The notes under the pieces are model-generated. The model worked only from the letters and a program-made list of their open reading frames with translations, searched no databases and had not been told where the DNA came from. DNA of 57,268 nt, counting the filler, from Dugesia japonica (lineage: Eukaryota), in the NCBI GenBank assembly GCA_001938525.1. It is 6 parts of 6 records of this genome, joined end to end, with 100 filler letters (N's around TTAATTAATTAA, not from the genome) between each part and the next. Parts side by side here need not be neighbours in the genome. Positions count along the whole stretch, not along the records: positions 1 to 8,872 come from MQRL01599351.1; positions 8,973 to 17,393 come from MQRL01490433.1; positions 17,494 to 26,615 come from MQRL01630921.1; positions 26,716 to 38,364 come from MQRL01608265.1; positions 38,465 to 47,884 come from MQRL01646375.1; positions 47,985 to 57,268 come from MQRL01565500.1. The stretch is one strand, 5' to 3'. The position numbers were made by a program, and so were the translations under genes. Of this stretch, positions 1,425 to 55,360 are shown piece after piece; positions within the stretch are counted from its first letter, which is position 1; each line of letters begins with the position of its first letter.

Positions 1425-2205
1425 AAAATATTCATAATTATAAAGTAAAATATTTAATTCATAAATCAAAATATTCATATTCATAAATTATAAATTAAAA
1501 TATTCATAAATTATAAATTAAAATATTCACAAATTATAAAGTAAAATATTTATTTTTTTACAATTGCAATCATTGCGAGAATAATTGTATAAAATAACCA
1601 TTGACAAAATCATTATATTCATAAATCAAATTATTCATAAATTAAAATATTCATAAATTAAAATATTCATAAATTATAAATTAAAATATTCATAAATTAT
1701 AAAGTAAAATATTTATATTCATAAATCAAAATATTCATATTCATAAATTAAAATATTCATATTTAGAAATTAAAATTCATAAATTATAAATTAAAATATT
1801 TATATTCATAAATCAAAATATCTATATTCATAAATCAAAATATCTATATTCATAAATCAAAATATTCATAATTATAAATTAAAATATTCATAAATTATAA
1901 ATTAAAATATTTATAAATTAAAAAGTAAAATATTTATTTTTTTACAATTAAATAACCATTGACAAAACCATTAAATTCATAAATCAAATTATTCATATTC
2001 TTAAATTAAAACTTATAATATTCATAAATTATAAGTAAAATATTTATATTCATAAATCAAAATATTCATATTTAGAAATTAAAATTCATAAATTATAAAT
2101 TAAAATATTCATATTCATAAATCAAAATATTCATAAATTATAAAGTAAAAAATTTATATTCATAAATCAAAATATTCATTTTCATAAATCAAAATATTCA
2201 TAATT
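1425..2205. repeat. Degenerate AT-rich minisatellite (ATATTCATAAATT[ATAAATT]AAA-like units)
   Basis: Directly visible tandem units. Fragments of the family-A repeat terminus are interleaved at about 1559-1606 and 1942-1970. Confidence 0.9.
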
Positions 2206-2372
2206 CATTTAAAATAAAAGCTTCCATCAAAATTTTTTTTTGTGGTTTTTGATAACAATTGTTATTAAAAACCGCAAAAAAAATTTTGATCGAAGCTTTT
2301 ATTTTAAATGAATTCTGAAAAATGATCAATGATTATGTCCAACAATTATTCTCGCAGTAATTGCAATTGTAA
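2205..2372. repeat. Family-A PLE-terminal repeat, fold-back form without ribozyme core
   Basis: Palindrome at about 2205-2312 centred on gataacaattgttatt, followed by ...atcaatgattatgtccaacaattattctcgcagtaattgcaattgtaa, which is shared with 55195-55360. Confidence 0.8.
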
Positions 2373-3428
2373 AATAAAATATTCATATTCTTAATTTATA
2401 ATATTCATATTCAAGAGCTGCTATCAATAAAATTAACTGAATTCCCCCATGGGCAACAAAGTAATGTTATATTCCCTTATAAATTTGAAACTTCGTATGA
2501 AATGTTCATAAATGAAACAGAGTTATCAGCACAATGACCAGAAATAACAAATGAAGAATATAATAATTACAAAGTCAGAATGGATGAAATAAGGAAGCAA
2601 TAATTTGCTNNNATAATATGAATCTAGAAATATACTTATTTCAAACATTTCGCCTAGATTGGAGCCATTACGATTTGTTTCCTTGCCAGGATTAAGCAAG
2701 ATTTTCATTTCCTGTGCTATTATAACTGTTAAAGGGAACGATTATTGGTGTTTGAATATTCAAATTATAATCACTAAGTTTATCCATAAAATTAATTCAA
2801 ATACTAAATACAAACTAATAAAAACTATTATTCAAACAAATCTACCTTTTTTATTTTTCTCTTTTTAAATTTGTTTTAATGAAAAATTTAAACAATTTTT
2901 AAATTAATTCTCTGCTCGTAATATCAATGCAACGTCCNNNNNNNNNNNNNNNNNNNNNNNNNNNNNNNNNNNNNNNNNNNNNNNNNNNNNNNNNNNNTTT
3001 CAATGAGCAATAGAGTTTACTTCTTCAAATAATTGTAAATCCATTTTCAACGAGATTTGACGAATGTTCAATAATATAGGATTTTGGAGTATATTAATAT
3101 GAATTTTCTTTTAACTATGGATAGCCCTATTGTAATATCTTAGTTTTTTCGAGTTTTACTTATATTGTCTCACTTTAATATGATGAACATTGCGGTTTTT
3201 GTTTCTTTCATTTGTCTTTTTCTCTAATTCCATTAACTAATTACTAACGGAAATAGCTAAACAGAAAAATGATAATGTTGACAATAATCATTTTATTTTT
3301 CACTATTTTGCTAATATTCTGAATTATATTTGCGACTCTGAATTGATTATAATNAACCTATAATCATAGTGAAATACATTTTGTTAATAACTTTATAAAT
3401 ATTGTTTTTGGAATAGTTTTACATTCAG

Positions 3429-3857
3429 AGAAGATCAAATAAAAATTCTTGAGCTCATCAAAAATGGAAAATTTGCCAAAGTCTATAAAGGGAAAAATTT
3501 GATAACTGGCTCTAACATAGTTTTGAAAAAGTACAGTTTAAAATGGAAGAACATTCGCAATTTTACACCATTGAAAGATGAATTAATTACTTTGTCGAAA
3601 TTTCAAAATGACGATAAAGTTGAATTCGTCAACTTAGACTGCGTATTTCAGACCAAGACACATTTCTTCATTGGAATGGAATATATTGAAGGGGTACTCA
3701 ACGTTTTCATTACTTATTTCATCATCAGTGTTTTTCTAGGGATCTCTAGATGCACGTATCCCTCTAACAGAAAATAAGATTATCGATTATTCCAAACAAA
3801 TATTGGGAGCATTGGATTATTTACACAGATCAGACATAATTTATCGGAATATGAAAT
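3429..3857 (+). CDS. Divergent Ser/Thr protein kinase-like gene, two exons (3429-3693, 3740-3857), subdomains I-VIb
   Basis: Spliced product is EDQIKILELIKNGKFAKVYKG..IVLKK..DELITL..FFIGMEYIEG|GSL..YSKQILGALDYLHRSDIIYRNMK. The 46-nt GT-AG intron is in frame. A possible decayed downstream exon lies at about 7881-7950. Confidence 0.8.
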
Positions 3858-4017
3858 GTGAGAATTATCATTTTCCTATTTACGCCTGTATAATGATATG
3901 TAAATTATGGATTCTAACAACTTGTTATACTTGGCAAAAATGAAAAAGTTAAAATATGAATTTTTCAATTTTAAATGAAGATTTATTGCAAGATGTTTAA
4001 CAAAATCTTCAGTTATA

Positions 4018-5583
4018 CAGATGGTCAAATTTTTTGACACACCTAATATTTTTATAATCGATGCTTAATCAAAATACTTTTCTAATTGATTTTGTATGGA
4101 TATAAAATTCTTATTCAAAATATCTTAAAATTGTTTCATTAAATATACTTGTTGATATAATATAGTCATATTTAGGAAATTTTCAATTTATTTAGATGTC
4201 AAATTTTTTTGACACACTTATTTATTTATAGGAAAAACCTAACGATCATGCAGATTACCATGCTTTTCTTAGTAAATAAACGACGTCTAATTGACTTGTA
4301 TAAATCAATAACTTTGTATTGCTTGTTGACATTAAAACGATTTATGACGGTAGTGATTTTTTCAACTAAACCATCCTTACAATTGAACTGGTTTCCATCG
4401 TAGACGAGATCTGACATTGTTTAACAGCAGTTATCAACAATATTCATATTTGGGCTTTTTGCCGGAAATTCCAATACTGATATACCTGATTTCTTCATGA
4501 ATTCCTGATCTTTCTTACTTTTGAGCACCGAAGAATTATCCTCCTGGAACCACCAAAATACTTATTCAAAAATATCTAAACTTGTTTAATTAAATATAGT
4601 TGTTTATATAATATAGTCATATTTAGTAAATTTTCAATTTATTTAAAAGTCAAATTTTTTGACACAGAAAGTTTAAAATTTATTAAGTAATTTTTGAAGT
4701 TGAAGTACAATTTAATTGAAAAGTATATTAGGTTCTACATCAATAATGCACAATATATTTGAAAGAAAACTGGCCATTCAATGGAGAACAGAAGAACTTA
4801 GTTATTTGGTCATTGGGACAAGGTTGAATTCATTTGACTGCCGTCCAAAAGCAATTACGTATGCAAGGTACAAGATTATTGATTTCGTTAAATCATAATT
4901 GGTATCTCGCAAAGAAGTGGTTTTCTTTGGAAGGTCTAGATGATTGGAGATCCTACGTACACAAATCATCGTAAAGAGGCAGTGCAAAGGTGGAAGCGTC
5001 ATGGTATGGATGATGACCATGCCAAACGGTCTGCTGTCTTTCAAGGTCCTTAAACAAAACATGAATTCTGATGGATACATTAAGTTTTTGTCAGAAAGTG
5101 CTGTGCCCATAATAAAATTAAATTATGGAGAAAATTGGTGGTTCCAGGAGAATAATTCTTCGGTGCACAAAGTAAGAAAGTGCAGGAATTCATGAAGAAA
5201 TCAGGTATATCAGTATTCGAATTGCCGGCAAAAAGCCCATATCTGAATATTGTTGAGAATTGCTGTTAAGCAATATCAGATCTTGTCTACGATGGAAACC
5301 AGTTCAATTGTAAGGATGGTTTAGTTGAAAAAATCACTAAAAATGTACTATTAAAAGCATGGTGATTTGTATAATCGTTAGGTTTTTCCTATTAGTGTTT
5401 CAAAAAAAATTTGACATTTAAATAAATTGAAAATTTCCTAAATATGACTATATTATATCAACAAGTATATTTAATAAACAATTTTAAGATATTTTGAATA
5501 AGAATTTTATATCCATACAAAATCAATTAGAAAAGTATATCGATTATAAAAATATTAGGTGTGTCAAAAAATTTGACCATCAG
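4018..5583 (+). mobile_element. Rearranged Tc1-like DNA transposon with long inverted arms
   Basis: TA|CAGATGGTCAAAT... and ...ATTTGACCATCAG ends. Transposase remnant GGSVMVW...WWFQENN..H followed by SPYLNIVENC. The left arm 4018-4555 is an inverted copy of about 5132-5583. Confidence 0.9.
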
Positions 5584-5746
5584 TTTAAAACTATCTATTA
5601 AAACGATTTAGTTTTTTCCATAGCTTCTCTACTGTTGGCTTCCAAATTGAAAATTAAAAACGCAAATCATCGTATAAATAGTAATAATAGTAATTATAAT
5701 AGTTTTATAATAGTAATAATTTATAATAGTAATTATAATATAATTA

Positions 5747-5875
5747 CAATTATTGTGAGAATAATTGTTGGACTTAACCATTGATCGTATTTGAGATTTC
5801 ATTAAAATAAGATAAGGCTTCGATCAAAAAATAAATTTTGTTTTGTTTTGATCGAAGCCTTATCTTATTTTAAAG
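5747..5875 (-). repeat. Family-A PLE-terminal repeat with fold-back, embedded in (TAATAG)n-like repeats
   Basis: caattattgtgagaataattgttggacttaaccattgatcg... followed by the inverted repeat aaaataagataaggcttcgatcaaaa / ttttgatcgaagccttatcttatttt. Confidence 0.75.
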
Positions 5876-6161
5876 TAATTATAATAGTTTTATAATAGTA
5901 ATAATTCCGCGATAATGAATATAAATTAATAGAGTTCCGTTGTGCTAAAAAGTTTGAGAAATACTGACTTAAACGTTAACGCTTACACTATAGTTAGAAG
6001 AAATAGTTAGAAGTTAAACTTACACTAAAACAAAAGAATAATTCACTATTTAAAGAATTTTACATTCGATTAATAACCATAAACAATCGATTTTAAAAAT
6101 GTTAAAAACGATGGCAAATGTTTGATAAAAAATAAATAATGTAATTTAAAATAAAGCTTTA

Positions 6162-6207
6162 TTGTTATATCTTTCGACGGATCAACATTCGGCGTCATCA
6201 GAGAAAA
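6162..6207 (-). ncRNA. Degenerate minimal hammerhead ribozyme, family B
   Basis: Minus strand reads ttct-CTGATGA-c-gccgaatgttgatccgtc-GAA-agatat-a-acaat. Shares the flank aaacgatggcaaatgtttgataaaaaataaataa with the 28727-28825 copy. Confidence 0.55.
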
Positions 6208-6354
6208 ATGAGTTTACAAAGTCCGTATTATTTAAACAAAAATTCAAGTAATTATACTGAATATAAGACGGCTATAATCCTAATTATTAATTTTTTTTCC
6301 TCCTTTACAAACTATTTTTATTAATGTAAAATTTCTTTATAATAATATATTTTT

Positions 6355-6530
6355 TACAATTGCAATTATTGCGAGAATAATTGTTGGACGTAACTATTGA
6401 TCGTTTTTCAGATTGATCGTTCATTTAAAATAAAAGTTTCGATCAAAATTTGTTTTTTTAGTTTTTTGAGATTAATTCGATATTTCGACTTTGTCTTCGT
6501 CAGTAATTGACTTTTTTAATTTATTCAAGA
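6355..6530 (-). repeat. Family-A PLE terminal repeat (pLTR) downstream of a PLE ORF remnant
   Basis: Full unit (ribozyme, then gatcgaaactttt, ...attattctcgcaataattgcaattgtaa) located 3' of the 6638-7015 ORF remnant on the same strand. Confidence 0.75.
6473..6509 (-). ncRNA. Minimal type-I hammerhead ribozyme, family A
   Basis: Minus strand reads caatta-CTGACGA-a-gac-aaa-gtc-GAA-atat-C-gaatta. Core intact, with one mismatch at the base of helix I. Confidence 0.7.
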
Positions 6531-6637
6531 TTTATGTTTATAATAGTAATAATTTTTGAATTAATTTTTTTTTATTAAACTTTAACTGGTTAATTTTCAT
6601 TCTTATTGAAATTTAATTTAATTATTCTAAATAACAT

Positions 6638-7015
6638 TTATTTTAGGATTGTCTTCTTTAATTTATATTTCTTCATGTTTTTTTCTATGAATTCTGTAGA
6701 AATGTAGCCAGTTCCCAGTGTTTTCCATGTTATGTGATGTTGTTGTTCTGGTGAAATTTTATATTTGTGTTGAAAGTGTTTTAAGACTTCAAACTTTTTT
6801 TCTGAAGAAACTAAACAACCAATGTTGTTTGATCTCTCAGTGCAGTTAAATGTATTCTGAGCGCAAAAATAATTCTTGTGATTTATGGTGAACACTATTT
6901 CTTCTAATTGATTACATTTGCTCCTTGTGAATCAAAATATTTTTAGTCTTGACATAGTTAAGTTTAGAATATTCCTATGTTTGATTGTAATGGCATTAAA
7001 TCTTAAATTATGCTC
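6638..7015 (-). pseudogene. Decayed 3' end of a Penelope-like element ORF (Zn-finger/GIY-YIG region)
   Basis: KCNQLEE.VFTINHKNY...FNC..., VLKHF and W..L.T motifs loosely resemble PLE C-termini. Followed by a hammerhead-bearing terminal repeat. Confidence 0.45.
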
Positions 7016-8872: not shown

Positions 8873-8972
8873 NNNNNNNNNNNNNNNNNNNNNNNNNNNN
8901 NNNNNNNNNNNNNNNNTTAATTAATTAANNNNNNNNNNNNNNNNNNNNNNNNNNNNNNNNNNNNNNNNNNNN
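8873..8972. other. Artificial scaffold linker N44-TTAATTAATTAA-N44
   Basis: Exactly 100 nt with a six-frame-stop 12-mer, repeated identically five times in the window. Confidence 0.95.
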
Positions 8973-17393: not shown

Positions 17394-17493
17394 NNNNNNN
17401 NNNNNNNNNNNNNNNNNNNNNNNNNNNNNNNNNNNNNTTAATTAATTAANNNNNNNNNNNNNNNNNNNNNNNNNNNNNNNNNNNNNNNNNNNN
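17394..17493. other. Artificial scaffold linker
   Basis: N44-TTAATTAATTAA-N44. Confidence 0.95.
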
Positions 17494-17752: not shown

Positions 17753-18065
17753 CCCAACATTTTAAACATAAAATAACATTGATATTTTGTATGTATTTGA
17801 GGATCCATCATGTTCTCAATTTTTAAGAATTTTACAAAATACTTGAATTTTTATTCAAGCATTCATTTTTTTAAAAAATTGAAATTTTAAATTTACAAAT
17901 TTCACATTCGACATGCTTTAACAATTTTTATTTAACATTATTTCATAAATTAATTTTTTTATTGAAAAAATTAATAAATAAATTTAAAAATTAAAAATCA
18001 TAGCCATCTTTTATTCAGTAATTTTTGTTTAAATAATATAGACTGAATAAACTCATTTTTCATTT

Positions 18066-18106
18066 TTGTCTGATGATGACGGTTGATCTGTCGAAATATA
18101 TAACAA
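18066..18106 (+). ncRNA. Minimal type-I hammerhead ribozyme, family B (best-formed copy)
   Basis: ttgt-CTGATGA-t-gacgg-ttgat-ctgtc-GAA-atatat-A-acaa gives a 4-bp helix I, a 5-bp helix II, a palindromic helix III and an AUA cleavage triplet. Confidence 0.75.
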
Positions 18107-18438
18107 TAAAGTTTTATTTTAAACGGCATCATTTATTTTGTAATAATAATAATAAATAATTTTACATTTAATTTTTTTACCTCACTTTGTCAACAAAAGT
18201 CAAACTTTCAGTGAACACTCTTATAAAGTTATGTCAACAAAATGTTTATCCCCCTCGTGACGNNNNNNNNNNNNNNNNNNNNNNNNNNNNNNNNNNATCT
18301 TGAAATAATTGTTGGCCTCAATTTATCTTGGAAACCCTCCTCTCCCTTGTCAATAATTGTAAAACGGCCCCGACTCATAATTACTGATTATATATTAGCA
18401 TGAAGTTAAGAAAATCAAAGAACTAAATAATTTCTTAC

Positions 18439-18776: not shown

Positions 18777-19094
18777 CTAGATAAAACACATAAATAGAAT
18801 AGAAGGTAATTTATTTATCTAAATATTTAATTTTCTATTTTTTTTTACTTAATTATTACAAGTTTATCTAAAATGAATTATAGGCATGTGTTTCATCAAT
18901 CGATTGCGAGTTATGATTGTTGATTATTTATTATAATTTAAAATTGATCTGAGTACAAACAAAATTATATGTTTATTAACATTAATTAATTTAATCTATA
19001 TTATAATCATATAAATATTGGTATAAGGATAAACATAGATCAAATAAAAAGAGAAACCAATTAAAAGTAGTAGTAATAGGAAATAGAAATAATA

Positions 19095-19306
19095 AATAGA
19101 AATGTAAAATATACTAGAAATATAATTACATATCATGTAAATTTTAGTAAATTCTCAAACAAATATGGTCTATGAAAATTTAGATAGTAATTTAAAGTTA
19201 AAAATTTAAATTACTATCTAAATTTTCATAGACCATATTTATTTGAGAATTTACTAAAATTTACATGATATGTAATTATATTTCTAGTATATTTTACATT
19301 TCTATT
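19095..19306. repeat. Near-perfect palindrome (about 102-bp arms, 8-nt loop)
   Basis: Arms 19095-19196 and 19205-19306 are reverse complements, with one mismatch seen. Confidence 0.9.
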
Positions 19307-19361
19307 AATATCAATAGAAAACCTAAATACAGCATATTAAAATGTCAATAGAAATCTCAAA

Positions 19362-19413
19362 AACAATCAATGGTTACGTCCAACAATTATTCTCGCAATA
19401 ATTGTAATTGTAA
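19362..19413 (+). repeat. Family-A PLE-terminal fragment
   Basis: aacaatcaatggttacgtccaacaattattctcgcaataattgtaattgtaaa matches 55306-55359. Confidence 0.75.
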
Positions 19414-20239
19414 AGCATATTAAAAGGTGAAATTTTATATGAACTTTAAATATTTCAGTTGATAATACAGGGGTGCTAACGATTTAGATGACGAGAAAAA
19501 TAATATTTAAATGAATATTAAATAATGAAAGAATTGAGATTAATTATTATTATTATAAAAATTAATAAAAGTTAGAAAATACATAAGTAAAATTAAGTTA
19601 TTAGCAAAGTAACTTAATACACTAAAATAATAACATTAAATAAGTATTGTCGGGCTAAAATTTTATCGAAGAAAAAACGATATATAATAATAAATATATA
19701 ATATAATTTCAAATGATGCCAAATCATTCTAATAAATAAAATTATGTAAAATACATGCTAAGAAAATTTTGAGAGATTAAATTCAAATTAAATAATTAAT
19801 TAAAATACATAAACCTTGCCAATAAAGTAAATGAGAATTGTTATAATATTTTATGAACTTGATCCCAAAACTTTTCTTGTTAATGAAATATAAAAAGTTG
19901 ATGTGCGACCAATAGAAAATCAGTATGGCTAAAAAATTTTATAAATAGTGTGAGGAATGATATTTGAATTGTTTGATTTCCAATTTTTTGCGCAATTAAA
20001 GTTTTAAAAATTTAAAATATTTCAAATAATTAAAATAATTATTGCCTATATTTGTTTGAATATTAAAACTATTCTAATCCAGTTTTTCAATTTATATAAA
20101 AATTTGTTTTAAATAAATGTTTGATGATGATAGCGTTTTTCTTGCTAATAAATAGAATTGAGAGTAAGAATCGTGTAAAAAACATTTTATTTGTTGATGC
20201 CTTCTGTGGATTTTTTCTGAGTAATTGAATAGTAGTTGT

Positions 20240-26715: not shown

Positions 26716-28356
26716 TTAGTACAAATTCCGACTAACGAGTTCCCAGATAAACTCCATTTCTCAAAATAGTTATTCAAAACAAGAGAATATTTTCTAATGT
26801 CCAATAGACTTTTTTTATATTAATTATATTTTCTCATTTTCACATTAATTATTAATTGTTCAACAAGATTGATATCTAATTGAAATTTTTTTATAAAATT
26901 ACTTTAAAGATTTTTTATTTGAAAAATGTGGAATTAATTATTTATAATTAATGAAATAAGAAATGAATTTATTTTGAAAGAACACCATTAACTCTACATG
27001 AGAAATTTTGTCATAACTATTATAAATTAATGGTATAAATAATTCTTTTTTGTAAATAACTAGTAATTTGATCAATAGCCTTCCTTTTTAAAAATTTTTA
27101 ATAAATATATTATTGTTCAGTTATTAAAAATGACATCAATTTAATTAATTTAAAGAAAAACTTAAAAATAAAAAAAAATTAAATATTTGGTATTTCTATT
27201 AATTATATTAAATATTTCATGGAATCTCCAATATCAAGACGTGAATCACAGTGAAACCAAATAAAATAGAATATATATTAAACTGTCGGTGCATTCATTT
27301 TTCATTTTTATTTCAATTTAAAACTCAAACTTTAATTAATGGTCTCAGTTTATTGGAATTTTTATTGTGAATTTCCATTATTAGAACTTAGAAATGACAT
27401 TGATTAATAATTTAAATGTCCAATTCCGTTAGAGTTGATTGAGCTTCATTTAGATTGTGAATTTAATTTAATTTAAAATCCATGTTAATGTTACATTTAT
27501 TAGTAGATTTAATTTTATTCTGAAAAGTTAATAATTCGGTCATTAATTAAATTTGCTATATTTCAAAAATAATATTTAAATTTTTCTAGTTATAATTAAT
27601 ATTTATTAAATTAATATTAAAGTAATTTAAATTGACATTGAATCTAAATACAAATTTTCTAATTAAAAATTTTAAATTTGTAAACGTTTTGTTAATATGA
27701 AGCGATATGATTACAGTTTGTATATTTTTTCTCACAAATTAATCGCCCATAAGTTTTTGTCATCTTAAATATGATTACAAAGCCAATGAGAAAAATGTTC
27801 TAGTATGTTTTCAACAGAAACTACCCAATGAGATATATAATACGAGTTCTTATACTCTTATCAATATCAATAAAGATATCAAGTAAATAATCAATATTTC
27901 ATTAGTCATCTATTTACTCGAAATATTGATTAATATATCTATACTACTTTTGTAATATTTTAATTTAAATTTATTTTAAGAGAATTTGTATATCCAACTA
28001 TTTTCATGACTTTCGAATTTGATGGTTTTATTTAGATATATTTCCAGAGAATTATTAGATTTATTATTTCTCTTCATATCTTAATAAAGAACGTTTAATT
28101 ATTACAGATTTAATGAAAATCAGTAAAAAAAATTAGAATTACTCTTGAGGTTTTGGTCAAACTTATAAATTTAAATCGAAAGTAGAATGATGAAATTCTG
28201 AACTTTTCATCCTCTTAATTGAAATTTTGTACAACTATTCAATGTATTTTATTTGTTTATGAAATGAAAATTTTAAATTCAATTTCGTAAATAAACTTAT
28301 CGAATACTTAATAATTATATTATTAAACTGATAAAATTCGTTATACAATTAAACTT

Positions 28357-28515
28357 ATTGTGAGAATAATTTTTGGATTTAAACCATGGATCACATTTTT
28401 AAAGTTTCAATATATTCAAAGTGTAGATCAAAATGTTATTGTTTTTTAATTTTTTAGATATCTGAATTTTCGACAATAGCGTTCTTCAGGGATTTACTTT
28501 TTGATTTATTCAAGT
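28357..28515 (-). repeat. Diverged family-A terminal repeat with degenerate hammerhead (28456-28496)
   Basis: Minus strand reads aaatcc-CTGAAGA-acgctattgtc-GAA-aatt-C-agatat. The distal attgtgagaataatt motif is retained. Confidence 0.5.
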
Positions 28516-28781
28516 TAATAATTGAAATAAAAATAATTTTGAAATTTAATTTATTTTTAAAACACAATGACAAATTTTTAATAAAAAATAAATCAAGCCA
28601 CAAGTGACGTAATTAGAAAATTTGGGCCCTTATGCAAAAGTTTTTAAAGGGCGTCTAATTTTTTTTATTTAGAACAAGTACTAGGGATATAACTAGTTAA
28701 TTAATTAATTTAAATAAGTATGTAATAAACGATGGCAAATGTTTGATAAAAAATAAATAACGCTATTTATAATAAAAAATT

Positions 28782-28825: not shown

Positions 28826-28829
28826 TGAA

Positions 28830-31800: not shown

Positions 31801-33810
31801 GATCAGTATTTATACTTATTTTACGTATGCTCTTGCTATCAGACACACACACACACAAAACAAATAACTATGCATATGCACATATTTAAAATAAATAATA
31901 CCTACTTTATTTTTTCACCAAAATAAATAATTCCTGCATTATTTTTAATAAAACCTAAATTTCCACTTTAATAAAATGAAATCAATAATATAAATTCCTT
32001 AAAATAAAATCAATAAGATAACACCTGTTCAAATTAAAATATCAAGTTGTAACAAATTTTCCACTATTTTAAAATTATAATACAATAAACCCGAAATAAT
32101 AAAATCATAAAATAATAAAAATTATTAAAGTCATATTGATTAATATAAAAAAGCCAAAATCAATGATAAATGCCGATATAGGATAATTGAATGAACTTGA
32201 ATAGGTTTAAATTCGAATATCAAATAATAAATAATAAAATAACAAAATCAATTTCAATTTCTCTGAACTTGAATGGGTTTGAATTCGAATATTGATTTGA
32301 TTGATCTCATGTATATATGTGTGTATATGACGTGTGCTTTAATTTGAACACAATAATCAAATCATATTGCCTAGAATGTCCAGGTATAGTGCGGCCGGAA
32401 GTAGAAAATTTTATGCATTTACTATTGCAGTTAATATTAACATCGTGATATGTAAAAAAGTTAGCACCCAATATAGGTGAGAATACATCTGCAACAATGA
32501 AATCCCACGTCATGGGGTTCTATGGTTACTGATGCTGAAAGAAAGAGTTCTGAGACCATAGCTTAATATTGGTTCAATGGTTGCAGACACCAATGAGTGA
32601 GTTGAACTACTACTAGCCAGCTTAAAAATTTCTTTTGGAAGAATACTTTTATCAGCTACACTGTCAAAAAGGAATGCTACTGCTGTTTTCTCTATATAAA
32701 GATCAATAAACAAAGATTTACGCTTGTCCAAGTCTAGTGTTGTATTAACACTAGTTGAGGAGACAGTGCTCGGTTCTACTGTCTCCTATGATCGTTTTCC
32801 GAATTGAGTGGATTCCAGTTGTACGGGCTTTGACATTTGATGATTTTATTTCCAAATTTTCTGTGATAAAAGCATAATTGATCGGATGGTTTCGATTTCG
32901 ATTCATACTTGTTTCTATCATTTGATTTTTTATTAAAATTATCCTGTACTTTGAACAAGCTTGACGCTCTTTCATTTGAAATCTTGATGAGCTTATCAGC
33001 AAATTTCGCCATTTCTGATAAGGTAAGAAAATTCTTGCAAATCTGAATATCCGCAGGCATCATGGATTCAAATTAATTTTTGAGAAGAACATTAGTTTCC
33101 AAGTCAGCATTCTTGTCGAAGCATTTGACAAGGGCTTGGAGTTTTCGTAGAGCAATGAAAGGAGATTGTCCATCCAATGATTGAGTGTTCCAAATCTTTG
33201 AATTGCATCTTGTGGAGTTAACTCGTAATTCTCCAAAAGTGCATTTTTTAAATTGGTGTAACTAGGATCACCGGAATATTTAAGAAATGTTTCATATTCT
33301 ATGAGAATTTCCATTGGCAAATTAGATATTAGGTGCTGGAATTTGGTCGATTCTGAAGTAATCCTGGCGAGTTTGAAAAAGTTCTCCACTTGCAGAAACC
33401 AGAGTTTGACATTGCGCATAAGAATTTCAAACATGCATTGATTACAACTGTCACTGTTACTTCTGACAACAGATGTTATGTTCATAATTAAACTAAGTAA
33501 CAAATTTTGAAATATCTCTTATTATCACAAATATGATATTTAAACAAATATAATTTAATTTCAATTTTAATTTTAATGTATAATTATTAATATTAATTTT
33601 ACAGTGTCCAAGAGCATAATCGTTTGGTAGTGGTAGTAATATTACCGAGCATAAATATCAAACTAAATGTAATACATTTCAAATTTTAAAAATTTGTCTA
33701 AACAATTTAAAAATTATTAGGAGAGAGTACTATGTGAGGCGTTAATGATTAGATTTCATATACTGAGAATTAATGTAAAAGCAGCTCTTTCTACTAAATT
33801 AATATAAAGT
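28830..33810 (+). mobile_element. Decayed Penelope-like element (RT + GIY-YIG), split by a Gypsy insertion: 28830-29770 and 33604 to about 33810
   Basis: RVAMDIPLCPTIA (GVAMGSPL.P..A) and YVDGIF (YVDD). VYKFLCNGCDTQ*IRETARNLCKSV|QEHN is a GIY-YIG motif restored on removing 29771-33608. Confidence 0.85.
29771..33603 (-). mobile_element. Gypsy (Mag-like) LTR retrotransposon, decayed, with both LTRs and TSD
   Basis: LTRs 33474-33603 and 29771-29886 (TG..CA). TSD GTGTC at 29766-29770 and 33604-33608. PPT gggaagtga and PBS-like tgttgtcagaagt. Gag WFLQVE..F..RITS..TKF and LCFYHRKFG, protease FLFDSVAD, RT WRPCGDYRQLN..KYPLP..FSKLDL and an RNase H remnant. Integrase is largely deleted. Confidence 0.93.
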
Positions 33811-33875
33811 TTTTTGATTTAAAATTCTAAATTTTTCATAAGTTTTTATAGAATATTATTTTTATTTAGTTTTTA

Positions 33876-33951
<76 letters not shown>

Positions 33952-34561: not shown

Positions 34562-35815
34562 AAATTTTTTATGATTTTGAAAGTTTTCCAGATGCTGGGA
34601 ATAGTTTTTGATTCAACTATTCTGTTATAGAGTAATGTGAGTACTTTGCCTTAAGGATTTAATAACGCAATATCTCTATAGTAAATTCCATCTTGACTAG
34701 GACAAGAATTATTAGCTTTTTTAATTTCTGAGAGTACTTCGTTTTCACTAATTGGCTCGAGACTTAATGGCATGTCTGACATTTTGCAGTTTTTTAATAT
34801 GACATCCCAGCTTTTTATTTTTGGCTCTTCATGATTAAAATGACTGAGAATGCTTTCAAGATTTAGTATTACATTGTATATTGTTTTTGTTTAATATTTT
34901 TGTAACAGTCCGTTTCATATTAGTCAAAAATTGAAATCTGAGCTGATGTTTAATGGTTCACTCTTTTTGAATTTGGCCGAGATATGGTTTATGGAAATTT
35001 GATTTAAAGTTTATCTTCGGAATATTTTCTATTATTCTACTAAGAATTGTATTGGGATCTTGATTTGATATTAGGTAAACTAGCTCATTGCATTTTCTTT
35101 TCCTATTATTTAGAGTCAGCCTAGGCATTTTATTTGATTATACTTGTGTAATTTTTACTTTTAATGAGTGCTGTTCTCTGCAATGATTGGTTGAAGTTTT
35201 TTTGATTGTGTCATCAATATTTCTAAGATTTATATTTGTAAGAGGTTTATCAAGAGAAAAGTGTTTGATAAATGCATATAAGAGAATTTGGATAAATAGG
35301 CCTGATGGTCGAGTATCATATGAACAGTGACCTTGAGTTGTTACGCGATTATCAACTTCTTTAATTTCATTAATATTTGTAAGAAAATCACGACGTAAAC
35401 TGATATAATCTTTATTTTCTGATTCTGATGTTGGGTTAAGTATATAATAATCATCACAATTGTAATCCAATATGAAAAGTACCTTGTGATATTTTGTCGG
35501 TGCTAAAACAGCAAAATCTGTTGTTGTGAACAGACTTGTTCGATGTCAAGAAAATCCTTTAAGTATTCTGACGAGTTTTCGATAATTGCAGTACACATTG
35601 TAGTTCCTAGTAGCATAGACATGATCACCAAATTGAGGCCGTTGAAATACATTTGGATAATTTTATCATTTATTTTGCCATTAATCAAACTAAGAGAAGG
35701 TTTAATATCGTCAGGAATTTTTTCATTCAGTTCATACAATGAGTCATACATAGTTGTATTGTCAATTCTACGATTGAACAACCTTTTTTCTGTTTGTACA
35801 ATAAATACTTATCAA
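34562..35815 (-). mobile_element. Non-LTR retrotransposon fragment (NeSL/R2-group-like): Ulp1-type protease followed by start of RT
   Basis: INGKINDKIIQMYF.., H.VLFILD..YYILNP and Q...YD..SGLF resemble the C48 protease. Downstream on the same strand is PISENEVLSEIKKANNSCPSQDGIYY..P*GKVLTLLYNRIV...IPSIWK (RT domain 0-1). Confidence 0.7.
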
Positions 35816-35933
35816 TAAAAACTCATCAACTTTGCTGAAGACTCAAAAACCCATTTAACGTTACATTTTAGAAAAATTAACATAAAATCTTGATATTGTT
35901 TCATGCAAATAGTTAAACAAGAAGAAAATTCAG

Positions 35934-36917
35934 ATGAAATCGAATTTTTTCTTTACACTTTTACCAAGTAATAGTAGTCCGTTAGTTCATCCAAATAATA
36001 CTGCTAGTAAATACATTGTTGAGCTTAAAAATTCAATTTACATGGATGGTAATTGGGAAGTTGCAATGATGGATTTCACCATTGTATATTCAGCATGCCA
36101 ATTTACAGTCAATCCAGGATTGTGTATGAATTTTTTAAAATAATTGTTGTTAACAAACAAACAGTTCTTTTAACTCTTACTAGTAAAAGCAAATATCAAA
36201 ATAATAAGGAAACAGATATACAAAGCAAAGAATAAAAATACAATAACCGTTGTTAGTGATATTAAATTCCACACTTTATCGTTACATACTATAGAAAATT
36301 TGGAAAGATTTTTGTATTATAGAGCTTATGTAACACAAAAGGGTAATATTGTAAGTCTTTGATACTAGTAAACATATTGATGATAAAACTTTTGCTATTC
36401 GATTTCATACCTTTAAAAAGGATGATACTGTTGAACAAATAAAAATTAATTATTACTATACGATTGTAACTAAACATTATTTTCAATTTGAAACCGATTT
36501 TTATATAAAGGATTTAAAATAACTAAATGAGTATATTAAAAAAAATTACTAGGATTAAATGAATCGCAATTTACTCGAATACAAATTGGTGATAAACAAC
36601 TAAAATATGAAAGCATCAAGAAACCAAGAATATTAAAGGGTTATAATGAAATGTACATCTATTGTAGTATTGTTGAGCCTATTGTTGTTGGTGATGTTAA
36701 TATTCCTTTATTAAAAGCTGTATGGATAGAACAACATGAGAACGATGAAGTAGTTCAAATAATTGTTGATCATCCAACGTATTTACCTATTTCTTCATCA
36801 TATATAAACAATAAAGAAATCAATTTACATGATGATAGTGGAAAACTAATCAACTTTGCTGAAGATTCAAAAACAGATTTAACGTTAAATTTAAGAAAAA
36901 TTAATAATGAATTCTGA
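35934..36917 (+). pseudogene. Polinton/adintovirus-like minor capsid protein (penton), disrupted
   Basis: N-terminal FFTLLPSNSS..HPNNT.S....L...I...GNWEVAM and C-terminal MYIYCSIVEP.VVGD..PLL..V...P.YLP...EINL.DD.GK.INF...LTL.. motifs. The middle has stops and frameshifts. Confidence 0.85.
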
Positions 36918-37404
36918 TATTGTATTATTGTATAGTACTAGCCAAGGAGGTGAAGAATTACCTTACTTTCTTGGAAAGCCATATGGATCTGGTTGGTTAC
37001 GAACTATAGGGAGATTTGCTTTACCTATTCTTAGACGTATTGGTTCTTTTGGTATGAAAACCGCTCAAGATATACTAGCTAATGACGGAAAATTACTACC
37101 CACATTGAAATCAATTGCATTAGCTGAACTTAGAAATGTAGTTTCTTCCTTAACAATTGTAGTTACCAGTATGATTCCAAAGGTAGCAAGTATATTACCA
37201 CAAAGTATAACTAATAAAATACCATCTGAAATAATTAATATGCTAACAAATCAATCTAAAACAGAACCAACTAATAGAAAATGCATAAAATCACATGCAT
37301 TATGTATAAACAAACGAATGAGAAAGGATGGAACAATATTTGGAAAACGATTTGTGGTAAAACTGAATTATGTATTTTTGATCGACCATCTCCTGAAGCT
37401 GTAA
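36907..37404 (+). CDS. Small Gly-rich/amphipathic virion-associated protein found between penton and hexon in adintovirus-like Polintons
   Basis: SQGGEELPYFLGKPYGSGWLRTIGRFALPILRRIG (Q.GG..P.F.G....G.G + amphipathic helix) with a basic C-terminus. It overlaps the penton stop and hexon start. Confidence 0.75.
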   Translation: MNSDIVLLYSTSQGGEELPYFLGKPYGSGWLRTIGRFALPILRRIGSFGMKTAQDILANDGKLLPTLKSIALAELRNVVSSLTIVVTSMIPKVASILPQSITNKIPSEIINMLTNQSKTEPTNRKCIKSHALCINKRMRKDGTIFGKRFVVKLNYVFLIDHLLKL

Positions 37405-38364
37405 TTGGAAATGGTAGTTTCGAAGATGTTTTACCTATGAATTAAATTTCTGAATCACATAGCGATGTAGAGTTTTTTATAAATGGATCTCAAACAGAAT
37501 ATTTGGATTCGAATGATACTTTATTGTATATTAAAGTAAAGGTAGTTGATAAGGATAATAAAGATTTGGCTGATAAGGATGATTCGGTTTCTAGTTCCTA
37601 TATGTTGCATACACTTTTTAAGGATGTAAATCTTTCTTTTAATAATTTCAAAATTGAAGATCGAAATGGATCTTATCTTCACAAAGCATTGATTTAAACT
37701 ATAATTAATTATAATGGTGATAGTAAGAATATATATCTTACAGCAATGGGATATGGATCAGAAGCAGATAGAAAAAAGTCTATTAAAACATCAAAACAAT
37801 TATCTCTATGCGGTTCAATACAACTCAATTTTATGGATCAACCCAAATACCTTATTCCAGTTGTCAACGTTCATTTTCGATTGAAACGAGCATATTCTAA
37901 GATTTGTTTGGAATCTGCAGCCAATGAACCTAAATATGTATTATTAGATGCAAAATTAATAGTTAGATTTGTACGCGTTGAACCCTCAGTACTAGTTGTT
38001 TATCAACTGGGACTAAAAAAGAAAAATGTTGTTTATCCAATAAGAAACAAAGATGTCGTTGCATTTTCAATTAGTAAATATAGTTCATCGTTTTATAAAG
38101 AACAAATCTTTGGTGACCGTAGATTTCCTAGCTTTAATCTGGTTACATTTCAAAGTGGAGAACAATATAATGGTAGTTATAAAAGCTCTAGTTCAACATT
38201 TCAAAATCTAGATGCTGTTTCCGTTTCCTTGAAAAAAACACTGATTATCTAGAAATATATACTCATGATTTTAAAAATGATAATTATACCACAACATATT
38301 TGCAATCTATAGTAAGAAATATGGAATATTTGGATAAGAATATGTATTGTGGAATAACACTTAA
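37328..38364 (+). pseudogene. Polinton/adintovirus-like major capsid protein (hexon, double jelly-roll), disrupted and cut by the scaffold end
   Basis: CGKTELCIFDRP..VI..GSFEDVLP..DVEFFING...YLD.NDT.LYIKVKV, LHTLF..V, QPKYLIP.V.V...L.R and AKL.VR.V...PSV match the MCP family pattern (C.KSELDLF..P). Confidence 0.88.
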
Positions 38365-38464
38365 NNNNNNNNNNNNNNNNNNNNNNNNNNNNNNNNNNNN
38401 NNNNNNNNTTAATTAATTAANNNNNNNNNNNNNNNNNNNNNNNNNNNNNNNNNNNNNNNNNNNN
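38365..38464. other. Artificial scaffold linker
   Basis: N44-TTAATTAATTAA-N44. Confidence 0.95.
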
Positions 38465-52196: not shown

Positions 52197-53832
52197 AGTA
52201 GTCAATAGTTAGCACATTTCGTATATCTATTAATGACCTGAAAATAATCCATGACTTTAATAATTTTCTGACCTATAAATAAAATACCATGACCATATTA
52301 TACTATTTCGGTACTTATTTCAGTGATTCGTCCAGCAATTTCATATGATAATTCCATGATGGGGAGATTAAGTAGATCTAACTGTTGTTGAGAGTTAAGG
52401 AATAGATTGTGGTATCGTCCGGTTTGATAAAATAATCTGGGTGCTAGGGTATCACGTTGGTGGATGATATTGAATTGATCGAGGAAAAGCCAAATATTTC
52501 AATGAGATAAACAGAATTTTAATACAATTAAAAGAAAAAAAGAATATTAAACTATATTTAATCACAACAATCTTAATTTAAATTAAAAAATTTCAACGGT
52601 TAATAAAATATTTTCGTGAAATATTTCCATTTAAAATGCTTTTTTTACATACAAAATTGATTGTTAATTTTAGTTAATTATCTGATTTAAGAATTTAAAA
52701 GCTAAATTTCGTAAGAATAACAAATGTCTTATAAATAAAAAACGAAAATATTTTTACAATCGTTTTACAATTATCAATTCGTATAGTTAAATAAATACAA
52801 ACCATTTCTTTTGTTTTAACAGTTAATTGTTTGTAATAAGAAACCGTGAAATCAAATCTCAAATTGATAAGCTTGTTTTTTATCGTGATATTTTGTGATT
52901 AATAAAAAATTAATAATTTTTAGATTTTCTTCATCAAAATTCTTATTAATTAATTCAAAAAAATTAATTATATGAATAGCTCAGTAGTGTTTGTTTATTT
53001 CTATGTTTGTATGTGATCCTCAATATTATTCAAAAATTTTCAAACAAATTTTAAAATTGTAATTTTTTTTATTATACCTTTGAAAATTTTCAATTAATAT
53101 GTTCAAAACATCAGTGATATATATTTGTTTCTTTGTTTCTTTGTTTATGCATTATGCTCAATATTATTCAAAAAAATAGTGATTTTTTATTTTTAATGAA
53201 AACTATTTTAAAAAAGAACAAGAAATATTTATAAAAATTTCATGCTCTTAATTTCCACTTCGATCACTCTGTAAGTCATATCGATCTGTGAGAGCAGTTT
53301 AAAGATGACTTTACTTTTCGGCTTTTCGATTTTTCTCGATCAATGTCAGATGAAATAGCTTCAAATCATACATTGCACGCTATCAAAAGTACAATTTTAC
53401 AATCTTACGATCAAGGCCAGTTGCTGAAAGACAACTGAAAATTCACTCGCAATGTAGTCTATAACGAAGTCTTCCGTATGTAACTTCAAAGATACGACTT
53501 CAATAAAATGATCAAAATGAAAGCAGGTAGGAAACATCTGATGTCTAAAAATATCAACAAATGACGGTGAACATGATCAAGCAACTTCCTGAAGAAATTG
53601 ATGTGCCAAATAAGGCGAGTAGTTAGTAGTACCATCAAAGCTGATACAAAGTTCGTTTGACAACAGAAACAGAGCAAATGGAAGGCACTAATATCAAGAA
53701 AATAAGGAGCGGGGCGACTTGCCCCTCATAAAATACCTAGTTTATCATTAATAATGTTAATGTTTTGATAAATATGTGATTTAGATATTTTAAACTGGAT
53801 TTGTTTTCTTCCATATAATAAAAAGTAATAAA

Positions 53833-54371
53833 AATATTAAATTGGCAACTAAATCAGTGCGCATTTTTAATGAATGTTTTATTTAAATGTTTGTTCTAAA
53901 ATGATATATCAGAAAATTTCTGTGGTTCGATGTATAAAAATATCATGCAAATAAAAGTTGAAATCAGCGGTTTGGTTTAATAATACTGGTTTTTGACTAA
54001 GTTAAACGAAAGATTGTGTAAGCCACATAAATCTTCGATCATTCAACAAAAGTTATTTCAGCTTGATTAGGATAATTTTGCCTCATTCGCCCTATAGTTT
54101 TGACCTTGCCCCGGTCGTCAAAAAATTTCATGGATGACAAAATTTTCATTTTTGATGATTATTTCAAATTCTATTAGGTTTAGAGTTTTGCCCAAAAATA
54201 CCAACAGTGGAATTTTGAACGTGATATATTATGATGTTGCCTGGGGGATGCCAACAGGTCATTGATAATAATGAATATTTTACTGTTTAATAAATAAATT
54301 TTTGAGCTTCAAAAAGTTGTTTTTCTATTTTATTATTAAAAATTCACACTAACTTAGTTGACAATCTAATA
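53833..54371 (+). mobile_element. Internally deleted mariner
   Basis: TIRs tattaaattggcaactaa / ttagttgacaatctaata. HSPYSFDLAP motif. Confidence 0.75.
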
Positions 54372-55068
54372 ATTAGAAGTATCAATTTATAGTATTGGTT
54401 AAAGTTAGAAAGTTATTTTTAAAATTAATTTATATTAATATAAGAGATAGATTTTCTTTTCGATAAAGAGCTTCAAAGAAAAATTTTCAAGTATACCACT
54501 TAATTTTATCTACTCTTCTTTATTAATAAGAATTTGTTGTAAATAAATTTTACGAAAGGAAAAAAACAAACAACTAAAATTTGATTTTCTGTATTTAATT
54601 GATGGTTGACATAAATGATAGGAATCGTCTGAGTAAATCAGAGAAATATATAAAACAGAAAATTTATCTGGATATATGTAGTAAATTATCACTAATGAAT
54701 AAAGCTAGATAGTCTATATCGAAGGATTTTTCTATCATTTTTCTCGTTCTAAACATCAAAACTAATTTATTATATTATTTTTCTTGAAAGAAATTTCTTT
54801 CCAATGATTAATAATACCAGATTTAATTTTATTTAATAAANNNNNNNNNNNNNNNNNNNNNNNNNNNNNNNNNNNNNNNNNNNNNNNNNNNNNNNNNNNN
54901 NNNNNNNNNNNNNNNNNNNNNNNNNNNNNNNNNNNNNNNNNNNNNNNNNNNNNNNNNNNNNNNNNNNNNNNNNNNNNNNNNNNNNNNNNNNNNNNNNNNN
55001 NNNNNNNNNNNNNNNNNNNNNNNNNNNNNNNNNNNNNNNNNNNNNNNNNNNNNNNNNNNNNNNNNNNN

Positions 55069-55360
55069 AAATTTAGGTTTTATTTATTGATATTGGATAA
55101 CAATTCGATATTTCGATCTTGTCTTCGTCAGGAATTGACTTTGTAAATTAAATTGACTTTAATTTAAATTGACTTTAAATTTAAATTGACTTTTTAAAAA
55201 AGTCAATTCCTGACGAAGACAAGGTCAAAATATTGAATTGTTATCCAATATCAATAAATAAAACCTAAATTTTGATCAAAGCTTTTATATTAAATGAATT
55301 CTAAAAAACGATCAATGGTTATGTCCAACAATTATTCTCGCAATAATTGCAATTGTAAAA
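55069..55360. repeat. Family-A head-to-head fold-back with two hammerhead cores (55101-55137 minus; 55204-55240 plus, G12->A)
   Basis: 55069-55142 is the reverse complement of about 55199-55272. The spacer consists of repeats of aattgacttt. The plus copy continues to the gcaattgtaa terminus. Confidence 0.85.

What the first reader, a model, noticed from the sequence alone, without database searches (positions are those of the whole stretch)
2205..55360. Non-coding, ribozyme-capped fold-back element family (about 165-bp unit) behaving like a PLE-mobilised retrozyme/SINE
Seen: one unit (hammerhead ... gatcgaagcttttattttaaatgaattc ... caatggttatgtccaacaattattctcgcaataattgcaattgtaa) recurs whole or in part at about 1559, 2205, 5747, 6355, 19362, 28357, 44657 and 55069. 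Most copies share the same distal end, and four are partial inverted duplications with a different fold point each time. The 6355 copy trails a PLE-like ORF remnant on the same strand. Inference: this is the pLTR of a PLE that also spreads on its own, with variable inversion junctions arising at each retrotransposition rather than from fixed TIRs.
Basis: partly seen in the sequence, partly recalled or inferred. Interest (0 to 1): 0.7.

Follow-up and report, generated by a model that had tools for sequence, protein, structure and literature searches.

The report
Stumps of a Penelope-like retrotransposon
The repeat is the short end piece of an ordinary Penelope-like jumping gene, made of a tiny hammerhead ribozyme motif followed by the first 22 codons of the element's own protein, and it is left behind many times as cut-short or folded-back insertions rather than being a separate non-coding element.

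Summary
The repeat is real: all 8 loci are confirmed. It is not non-coding. Its distal 67 nt are an ATG plus 21 codons that match residues 2-19 of P0003, an 843-aa RT + GIY-YIG protein (14 of 18 identical, E 1e-8; 300 shuffles reach 22 bits against 36). The C-terminus of the same protein lies just upstream of the 6352 copy. So the unit is the pLTR plus 'tail' of an endonuclease-positive Penelope-like element, probably Nematis-like, with a minimal type I hammerhead in 4 of 8 loci. The fixed 3' end (782 and 713 contigs with unrelated flanks), shorter inverted 5' arms and 12-bp or invisible TSDs are all described for PLEs. No tandem array, amplified junction or circular-RNA joint was seen, so 'retrozyme/SINE' is unsupported but not excluded. 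One lead remains: many arms start about 14 nt before the ribozyme core, which may mark the RNA's 5' end and make the 165-bp unit a run-off cDNA of the autonomous element. Verdict: new member of a known kind, low interest.

The parts
55196..55360 (+). Complete 165-bp unit: pLTR (A run, hammerhead, 5' UTR) plus 67-nt tail
   Evidence: reference
55204..55240 (+). Minimal type I hammerhead (helix I 6 bp, core, extra A, helix II 3 bp, palindromic AUAU in place of helix III); this copy has lost G12 and C17, which 93% of contig depth keeps
55294..55360 (+). Tail = ATG plus 21 codons of the PLE ORF; holds an 8-bp hairpin at 55329-55349
55069..55146 (-). Inverted arm with hammerhead (core at 55131), cut by an N gap; stuttered fold-back spacer at 55147-55195
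6621..6802 (-). C-terminal 59 codons of the GIY-YIG endonuclease (P0003 aa 785-843, 67-75% identity; one frameshift near 6695, two stops)
6352..6620 (-). 3' UTR, hammerhead (core at 6503, helix I damaged), 5' UTR and tail of the same 5'-truncated insertion
28341..28563 (-). Old, diverged copy with about 60 nt of 3' UTR upstream of a degenerate hammerhead (core at 28489)
44648..44729 (-). Distal half (last 15 nt of 5' UTR plus tail), inserted in (TTA)n
44728..44829 (+). Inverted proximal half with the one fully intact hammerhead (core at 44744); ends at the start codon; 2-nt overlap at the junction
2256..2374 (+). Forward arm, starts in the 3' strand of helix I, no ribozyme core; candidate 12-bp TSD 2191-2202/2376-2387 inside a minisatellite
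2197..2260 (-). Inverted arm of the same insertion, ends at or just after the start codon
5739..5843 (-). Forward arm of a second subfamily, no ribozyme core
5846..5879 (+). Short inverted arm of the same insertion, ends at the start codon
19343..19414 (+). Tail-only copy between a 12-bp direct repeat (19331-19342 / 19414-19425); a further 22-nt piece of the unit lies at 19307-19328
1556..1604 (-). Last 49 nt of the tail inside a minisatellite; a deleted duplicate lies near 1938-1962
43831..43875 (+). Short piece resembling the endonuclease C-terminus (10 of 15 residues to P0001, E 0.003); no pLTR found behind it

Best explanation
The copies are short, independent insertions of one family of endonuclease-positive Penelope-like elements (PLE), probably of the Nematis group. 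Shown: the unit is 3' UTR/5' UTR, minimal hammerhead, ATG and 21 more codons of the element's RT + GIY-YIG ORF; it has two fixed 3' ends, one at the start codon (inverted arms) and one 67 nt into the ORF (forward arms). Inferred from published PLE work: the element's protein nicks AT-rich DNA, starts reverse transcription inside the first part of the ORF on its own RNA, usually stops early, and often switches template or folds back, which gives a forward stump with a shorter head-to-head inverted arm and a variable or invisible TSD. Inferred and less sure (about 0.4): the common 5' boundary some 14 nt before the ribozyme core is the 5' end of the pLTR-started RNA, so the 165-bp unit is a run-off copy, while longer copies (6352, 28341) come from read-through RNA that carries a downstream pLTR. 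The ribozyme could cleave only as a dimer or with protein help; activity was not tested.
For: P0003 (843 aa; RVT_1 at its cut-off 29.6 bits, GIY-YIG E 2.8e-4 below its cut-off; YIDD, CxxC/YIG, HxxxxH) matches the unit's distal end with its residues 2-19 (36.2 bits, E 9.7e-9; best of 300 shuffles 21.9; best of the 14 other proteins 16.9) and 6802-6621 with its residues 785-843 (E 4e-13), in the order ORF end, UTR, hammerhead, ORF start. 782 (X1) and 713 (X2) contigs leave the reference at 55360 into unrelated sequence (agreement 0.47); summed depth falls from about 1e6 to 8. Depth is about 3 times higher over the tail than over the ribozyme, as 5' truncation would give. Inverted arms end at TTTTAAA before the ATG in 3 of 3 loci. 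Same anatomy in print: pLTR with 12 codons, 22 with tail, shorter inverted 5' pLTR, solo pLTRs (PMC3846280); two internal RT start sites bounding the tail and ATT-rich targets (PMC11167929); minimal hammerheads mostly solo or as opposite-strand pairs 100-700 bp apart (PMC4209133).
Against: No full-length element of this family was seen at DNA level; the link runs through P0003, which is 67-78% identical in protein and so a relative or another subfamily, of unnamed source. No ORF-continuing loose end is among the 20 of 561 loose-end rows shown. The tail is 67 nt against 30-40 nt in print. A clear TSD is seen in 1 of 8 loci; 3 more lie in mini- or microsatellites and cannot be called. Contig depth is dominated by one variant set that is rarer in RNA, which could be a separate young subfamily. 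Covariation in 5 hammerhead copies is not above shuffles (104 of 500 reach it), and the hammerhead fold of the best copy (-5.0 kcal/mol) is less stable than another hairpin (-10.0).
Confidence: 0.83

Rival explanations
1. A non-autonomous daughter (non-LTR retrozyme or SINE-like master) derived from the pLTR now spreads on its own, perhaps from tandem arrays and circular RNA, using the PLE protein in trans.
For: Very high abundance (29,842 and 22,862 contigs laid; 1 locus per 6.9 kb in the window). A recurring 5' start at 55191-55201 (8 of 9 opposite-strand joints shown). Four joins from 55346-55363 back to 55197-55198, read as head-to-tail dimers (table 5c). One variant set holds about 70% of contig depth at 55258 and 55304 but 1 of 112 and 242 of 942 RNA reads of X22. 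Animal retrozymes are proposed to derive from pLTRs (bioRxiv 10.64898/2026.07.22.740005).
Against: Retrozymes are defined by tandem units with canonical hammerheads (PMC7229834); here the motif is minimal and no array lies in the window. Each of the four back-joins has its own 9-29 nt spacer and depth 7-18, so none was amplified. No shown joint has RNA support, and no place where many RNA molecules begin or end was found (poly(A)/cDNA libraries, a weak test). 8 different 5' ends in 8 loci. The DNA/RNA difference is biased because short contigs of diverged subfamilies fail the 85% filter.
Confidence: 0.11
2. An ordinary MITE or Helentron-type DNA element with sub-terminal hairpin and fixed inverted ends.
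For: An 8-bp hairpin 11 nt before the fixed end, kept by G-U pairs in two copies; outward-facing ends at 1556/2374; AT-rich targets.
Against: The end is in frame with the N-terminus of an RT + GIY-YIG protein; the two arms end at different points 67 nt apart; 4 of 8 loci have no inverted arm; no constant TSD; hammerhead core kept in 93% of contig depth at G12 and C17.
Confidence: 0.03
3. The fold-backs are assembly or library artefacts of a gappy short-read assembly laid over a simple dispersed repeat.
For: The window has 2,052 N and one arm ends at a gap.
Against: The two arms of each palindrome differ (85-92% self-identity). Opposite-strand joints stand in contigs of two runs of different studies, four of the nine in both, and three RNA reads carry an inverted hammerhead arm directly before 55197.
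Confidence: 0.03

Closest known systems
Endonuclease-positive PLE insertions with pLTR, tail and inverted 5' pLTR (Pen2a_Av and kin, PMC3846280; general scheme in PMC8557442; Drosophila virilis Penelope, PMC2377424)
   Same: pLTR overlaps the ORF start and reaches codon 22 with the tail; shorter inverted arm head-to-head; palindromic junctions; solo pLTRs; TSDs of about 8-12 bp or none; AT-rich simple-repeat targets.
   Different: Tail is 67 nt (30-40 nt in those papers); the tail-less end sits at the start codon; copies are far shorter and far more numerous than in Adineta; no intron seen.
Nematis-group PLE proteins, nearest named row PNL2_SM (Fig. S2 of PMC8557442, compared by eye)
   Same: C-terminal GIY-YIG with CxxC and two histidines; short cysteine linker with CxC; 21 of 37 residues identical over the GIY-YIG core by my count.
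   Different: Not the same family at that identity. P0003 also has DKT and a CxCx5C linker, which PMC8557442 lists for Hydra elements, but keeps the CCHH motif that Hydra lacks. No tree with reference sequences could be built.
Minimal type I hammerheads of metazoan PLEs (PMC4209133)
   Same: Conserved core, one extra nucleotide between 9 and 10.1, G10.1-C11.1, palindromic 15.2-16.2 with no real helix III, mostly solo or in opposite-strand pairs.
   Different: Helix II is only 3 bp with a 3-nt loop (7-8 bp in Schistosoma, 6 bp in D. virilis in that paper); helix I is 6 bp.
Poseidon PAc of the green anole (PMC11167929)
   Same: Genomic ends at two sites near the ORF start that bound the tail; a stem-loop near the distal site; ATT-rich targets.
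   Different: In PAc the ORF starts inside the ribozyme and initiation lies 111-118 nt into the ORF; here the ATG lies 84 nt after the core and the far end 67 nt into the ORF.
Non-LTR retrozymes of animals (PMC7229834; bioRxiv 10.64898/2026.07.22.740005)
   Same: Short, AT-rich, type I hammerhead, linked to PLE pLTRs.
   Different: No tandem array, no canonical hammerhead, no circular RNA seen; the unit carries ORF codons and PLE-type inversions.

Membership tests
EN+ Penelope-like element | Single ORF with RT and C-terminal GIY-YIG endonuclease | tested here: met
   P0003 has both; its two ends match the window on either side of the UTR. The full ORF itself is not in the window.
EN+ Penelope-like element | pLTR overlapping the ORF start, with optional tail | tested here: met
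   22 codons in the distal 67 nt; second end at the ATG
EN+ Penelope-like element | 5' truncation and inverted 5' arm | tested here: met
   8 different 5' ends, 4 of 8 loci inverted; 9 opposite-strand joints among 15 shown
EN+ Penelope-like element | Hammerhead motif in the pLTR | tested here: met
   Descriptor finds 3 hits in the window (1 of this family) against a mean of 0.03 in 100 shuffles; G12 and C17 in 93% of contig depth
EN+ Penelope-like element | Partial-tandem full-length copy (pLTR-ORF-pLTR) | not testable with these tools
   No assembly held; DNA around P0003 could not be fetched
Nematis clade | CCHH motif plus reduced cysteine linker | tested here: met
   CTIC, HFQNIH and CGPKCICDGKNSC in P0003; four homologues have CxxC in the linker
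Nematis clade | Placement in an RT tree with reference elements | not testable with these tools
   No named reference proteins among the 13 hits
Hydra clade | Absence of the CCHH motif | tested here: not met
   CCHH present, although DKT and CxCx5C are shared
Non-LTR retrozyme | Head-to-tail tandem units, each with a hammerhead | tested here: inconclusive
   None in the window; four single-locus back-joins with unlike spacers in contigs; an array with a longer unit would not show in that lay
Non-LTR retrozyme | Canonical type I hammerhead with helix III and loop 1-loop 2 contacts | tested here: not met
   Only two nucleotides lie between A15.1 and U16.1
Non-LTR retrozyme | Abundant unit-length linear and circular RNA | tested here: inconclusive
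   No RNA joint among 15 shown, no pile of ends; reads on both strands with mixed flanks; poly(A)/cDNA libraries, 6% and 25% of the runs read
Non-LTR retrozyme | No coding sequence | tested here: not met
   Distal 67 nt are the ORF start
MITE | Fixed TIRs and constant TSD | tested here: not met
   Asymmetric arms, 4 of 8 loci without a second arm, no constant TSD
Self-cleaving ribozyme (activity) | Cleavage after C17 | not testable with these tools
   No in vitro data; no Rfam hammerhead match at E <= 1

The most novel reading that the evidence does not exclude
The 165-bp unit is a natural run-off product: reverse transcription that starts 67 nt inside the ORF on an RNA that begins about 14 nt upstream of the hammerhead core can copy only this much, so an autonomous PLE would itself mass-produce discrete solo, inverted and dimeric pLTR units with no SINE master. 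The genomic 5' boundary would then map the RNA's start, and the long-noted excess of solo minimal hammerheads in animal genomes would follow from internal initiation.
Probability: 0.35. Interest if true: 0.55.

Novelty: new member of a known kind. Interest (0 to 1): 0.25.

Why it matters
As an annotation it is ordinary: a high-copy PLE family whose stumps would be mislabelled as MITE, SINE, retrozyme or microRNA hairpins (three MIR models score on the palindromes below their gathering cut-offs). It is of some use to PLE specialists because hundreds of independent junctions in one species fix both ends of the tail and could test, from genomic data alone, whether internal initiation plus a pLTR start site explains solo pLTRs and head-to-head inversions. 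The 67-nt tail, the 3-bp helix II and the mix of Nematis and Hydra protein motifs are small extensions of what is described.

Tried and rejected
Whole genome: none held, so no census of copies. Rfam at E <= 1: 8 matches, none a hammerhead. The long ORF 6641-6931: no Pfam family of note, 0 of 72 candidates among longer proteins, no usable Atlas hit; it is chimeric and changes frame, and was solved only through P0001 and P0003. P0002, the second hit, is a TPR protein and a chance match. Atlas search with P0001: one GIY-YIG cluster at rank 22 (15% of members), a lead only. A 24-nt pattern found 0 matches in viral and 0 in metagenome contigs. PDB sequences: only distant RTs (9 sequences, best E 6e-6), no PLE structure. 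Covariation of the hammerhead: not above shuffles. Minimum-energy folds do not give the hammerhead for any of 9 motifs, as monomer or dimer. Run search: no RNA holder listed on record. A splice acceptor before helix I (as in D. virilis) was considered as the cause of the 5' boundary and set aside because the arms keep the A run upstream of the AG. A TATAAA 25 nt upstream in the 6352 copy is not kept in the 28341 copy and is not counted. Summed contig depth was not turned into a copy number. Earlier notes on this genome or on P0003: none.
Full report
1. Observation. The window is 24.8% G+C with 2,052 N; no whole genome is held for it. A profile made from 8 of the 13 arms that I aligned gives 11 hits at E <= 3.4e-7, all at these eight loci, three further hits at E >= 0.047, and no hit in 20 block-shuffled windows. 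I call the strand that carries the hammerhead the sense strand and use the arm 55196-55360 (+) as ruler. On that ruler all eight loci end at 55357-55360, and their forward arms start at eight different places: inside the ORF (6802), about 60 nt upstream of the ribozyme (28563), 55196, about 55236-55267, 55256, 55279, about 55290 (with a stray piece from 55247) and 55312. Four loci hold a second, inverted arm head-to-head. Their inner junctions lie at about 55236, 55256-55270, 55196 joined to 55279, and 55196/55199 with a stuttered spacer. Their outer ends stop at TTTTAAA in 3 of 3 loci where they are visible; the fourth is cut by an N gap.

2. The unit is the end module of a Penelope-like element. 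The long ORF beside the 6352 copy gave nothing in Pfam, among longer proteins or in the Atlas. Read through its stop with X, it found 2 proteins among 1.84 billion: a TPR protein by chance and P0001, 77 aa, which continues in a second frame of the window. P0001 found P0003, 843 aa (E 3.8e-23; 1 of 10 candidates), with RVT_1 at its cut-off, GIY-YIG at E 2.8e-4 under its cut-off, YIDD, CxxC before YIG and HxxxxH; 12 further homologues, all unnamed, share this layout. Residues 785-843 of P0003 match 6802-6621 at 67-75% identity with one frameshift and two stops (E 4e-13). Residues 2-19 match the distal end of the repeat itself, at all eight loci to some degree: 14 of 18 identical for the reference arm, 36.2 bits, E 9.7e-9, against at most 21.9 bits for 300 shuffles of P0003 and 16.9 for the 14 other proteins held. 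The distal 67 nt read ATG plus 21 codons. The 6352 copy therefore reads: end of endonuclease, 115 nt, hammerhead core, about 84 nt, start of the ORF, stop at codon 22. That is pLTR plus tail. In Adineta Pen2a the pLTR holds 12 codons, 22 with the tail, and an inverted, shorter pLTR sits at the 5' end; solo pLTRs occur (PMC3846280, passages and Discussion read). The same scheme, with a 30-40 bp tail and microsatellite targets, is given in PMC8557442 (passages, section 11 and supplement passages read). P0003 keeps CCHH, so it fails the Hydra definition, though it has DKT and a CxCx5C linker; by eye its endonuclease is closest to the row PNL2_SM, listed after the Nematis rows in Fig. S2 (21 of 37 residues). 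Nematis-like is thus a motif call, not a tree.

3. The ribozyme. Rfam has no hammerhead match. By hand the motif is helix I CAAUUC/GAAUUG, CUGACGA, one extra A, helix II GAC-AAG-GUC, GAAA, UA, UC: only the palindrome AUAU stands for helix III. These are the marks of the minimal PLE hammerhead, which is thought to work as a dimer, cleaves poorly in vitro, and occurs mostly solo or as opposite-strand pairs (PMC4209133, parts 1-2 of 4 read). A strict descriptor finds 3 motifs in the window against 0.03 on average in 100 shuffles; one is of this family (44744), two of other families. Four further arms are damaged, and 4 of 8 loci have no core. In public contigs G12 and C17 hold 93% of the depth in both runs, so the family consensus is intact. 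Against a strong claim: covariation over 5 copies is not above shuffles, and another hairpin is 5 kcal/mol more stable than the hammerhead fold. Activity is untested.

4. Outside the window. Twenty listed runs of 9 studies hold the stretch or part of it. I laid 4 of the 24 listed runs on 55190-55440 at 85% likeness. 29,842 and 22,862 contigs were laid. Summed depth drops from about 1e6 to 8.1 and 6.5 behind 55360, where 782 and 713 contigs go on into unrelated sequence (agreement 0.47): at least several hundred insertions share this end. Depth over the tail is about three times that over the ribozyme. Of 38 joints 15 are shown; all lie at depth 5.3-23.6 and none has RNA support. Nine are opposite-strand joints, and 8 of these have one side at 55191-55201 and the other anywhere from 55228 to 55321. 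Four of the 12 rows shown in table 5c (of 17) join 55346-55363 back to 55197-55198 through spacers of 9-29 nt, each different; I read them as head-to-tail dimers at single loci (the table does not give the kind). RNA reads (55 and 2,074) lie on both strands, leave the unit at 55360 into mixed sequence (629 reads in X22, agreement 0.45), and show no pile of starts or ends: this looks like copies carried in host transcripts. These libraries are a weak test for small or circular RNA.

5. How it works. Shown: coding tail, two fixed 3' ends 67 nt apart, variable 5' ends, head-to-head inversions, AT-rich or (TTA)n targets, a 12-bp direct repeat around the 19343 copy (4 of 116 random boundary pairs reach 12 bp or more; three other candidates lie in satellites). 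Taken from the anole element (PMC11167929, parts 1-2 of 4 read): the PLE protein nicks ATT-rich DNA on both strands and starts reverse transcription at two internal sites that bound the tail; ribozyme cleavage was not needed for insertion in vitro. Inferred: here the two sites are the start codon and codon 22, the forward arm is primed at one and the inverted arm ends at the other, and template switches or fold-backs make the junction anew at each insertion. Less sure: 3 of 12 arms in the window and at least 12 of 38 joints start at 55191-55201, 9-19 nt before the core and about 35 nt before the cleavage site. This may be the 5' end of the RNA (the Penelope transcript starts inside the pLTR; PMC2377424, passages read), which would make the 165-bp unit a run-off cDNA. 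The test is weak: my reference ends there, junctions further upstream cannot show, the rows shown may be a biased pick, the chance of 12 of 38 is 0.003 to 0.37 depending on the window allowed, and a TTAA/A-run could favour fold-back there by sequence alone. An AI note on another genome (e1-7858714) describes the same clustering; it is a lead, not support.

6. Rivals. A free retrozyme or SINE: retrozymes are tandem units with canonical hammerheads and circular RNAs (PMC7229834, passages read; bioRxiv 10.64898/2026.07.22.740005, part 1 of 5 and passages read, supplements not seen). None of this was seen, and two defining features fail. It is not excluded, because one variant set dominates contig depth (55258 T 73%, 55304 T 71-74%) yet is rarer in RNA (1 of 112 and 242 of 942 reads in X22); short contigs of diverged subfamilies are filtered out, which inflates this contrast. 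MITE or Helentron: fails on coding end, asymmetric arms and TSDs. Artefact: arms differ by 8-15% and such joints stand in two runs.

7. Novelty and verdict. Every shown feature has a published PLE precedent; the family may already be in Repbase, which I could not search. I did not find the run-off explanation in the texts read or in searches, but most subscription papers on PLE structure are not in the library. Verdict: real, correctly spotted, correctly tied to a PLE, wrongly called non-coding and without evidence for independent spread. New member of a known kind; interest 0.25.

Noticed in passing
window 6099-6298 (-), 17976-18142 (+), 28720-28831 (-): A second hammerhead-bearing repeat family (cores at 6201, 18070, 28819; longer helix II, AUAUAU palindrome) that shares the TTTTATTTTAAA motif with family 1. 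The 28720-28831 copy starts about 12 nt before its core and faces away from a PLE remnant, like an inverted 5' pLTR.
   Followed up: partly
window 28885-29758 (+): Older PLE remnant of another family: RT (profile E 1.6e-11) and a weak GIY-YIG piece, followed by a Gypsy-type element with LTR-like repeats at 29776-29881 and 33479-33585 and RT/RNase H/gag-like pieces on the minus strand.
   Followed up: partly
window 56290-56862; homologous pieces 42027-42300 (-): A third family with the same build: hammerhead core at 56577 (helix II GGC-UAU-GCC, a compensatory change against family 1), a shorter inverted arm at 56290-56373 and a longer forward arm.
   Followed up: partly
window 5706, 5891 and 6539: A 16-mer of the family's own 3' UTR occurs only there and in both flanks of the 5739-5879 copy, inside a 33-bp direct repeat: insertion into, or stuttered copying of, the element's own UTR.
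   Followed up: partly
window 19092-19309: A 218-bp near-perfect palindrome (96%) with no other match in the window abuts the 19307-19414 copy; the microsatellite left of the 44648 copy (44531-44636) is also self-inverted. Flank fold-back at insertion is a possible cause.
   Followed up: no
window 1383-2410: An AT-rich minisatellite (periods 7, 16, 22) holds three pieces of the unit; one tail piece was duplicated with the array and lost its hairpin.
   Followed up: no
places 55258, 55278, 55304, 55322: One variant set dominates DNA contig depth in two runs but is rarer in poly(A) RNA; could be a young silent subfamily or an array, or a filter bias.
   Followed up: no
P0003-P0006: These proteins combine DKT and a CxCx5C linker (listed for Hydra elements) with an intact CCHH motif, while P0008-P0011 have a CxxC linker: a possible bridge between Nematis and Hydra types.
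   Followed up: partly
window 4013-5588: Inverted repeats of about 265 bp (88%) around a broken ORF that resembles a Tc1/mariner transposase (resemblance recalled; no Pfam hit for 4944-5192).
   Followed up: no
window 34651-35545 (-) and 35913-38252 (+): Broken ORFs that resemble a protease-bearing non-LTR element and Polinton/Maverick-type capsid genes (resemblance recalled; no Pfam hit). Observed only.
   Followed up: no
window 430-693 (+), 3391-3777 (+), 45527-45886 (+): Ubiquitin-like, protein-kinase and RT RNase H-like pieces.
   Followed up: no
window 8873-8972, 17394-17493, 26616-26715, 38365-38464, 47885-47984: Pairs of 44-N runs 12 bases apart (TTAATTAATTAA at the first): a scaffolding spacer of the assembly, not biology.
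   Followed up: no
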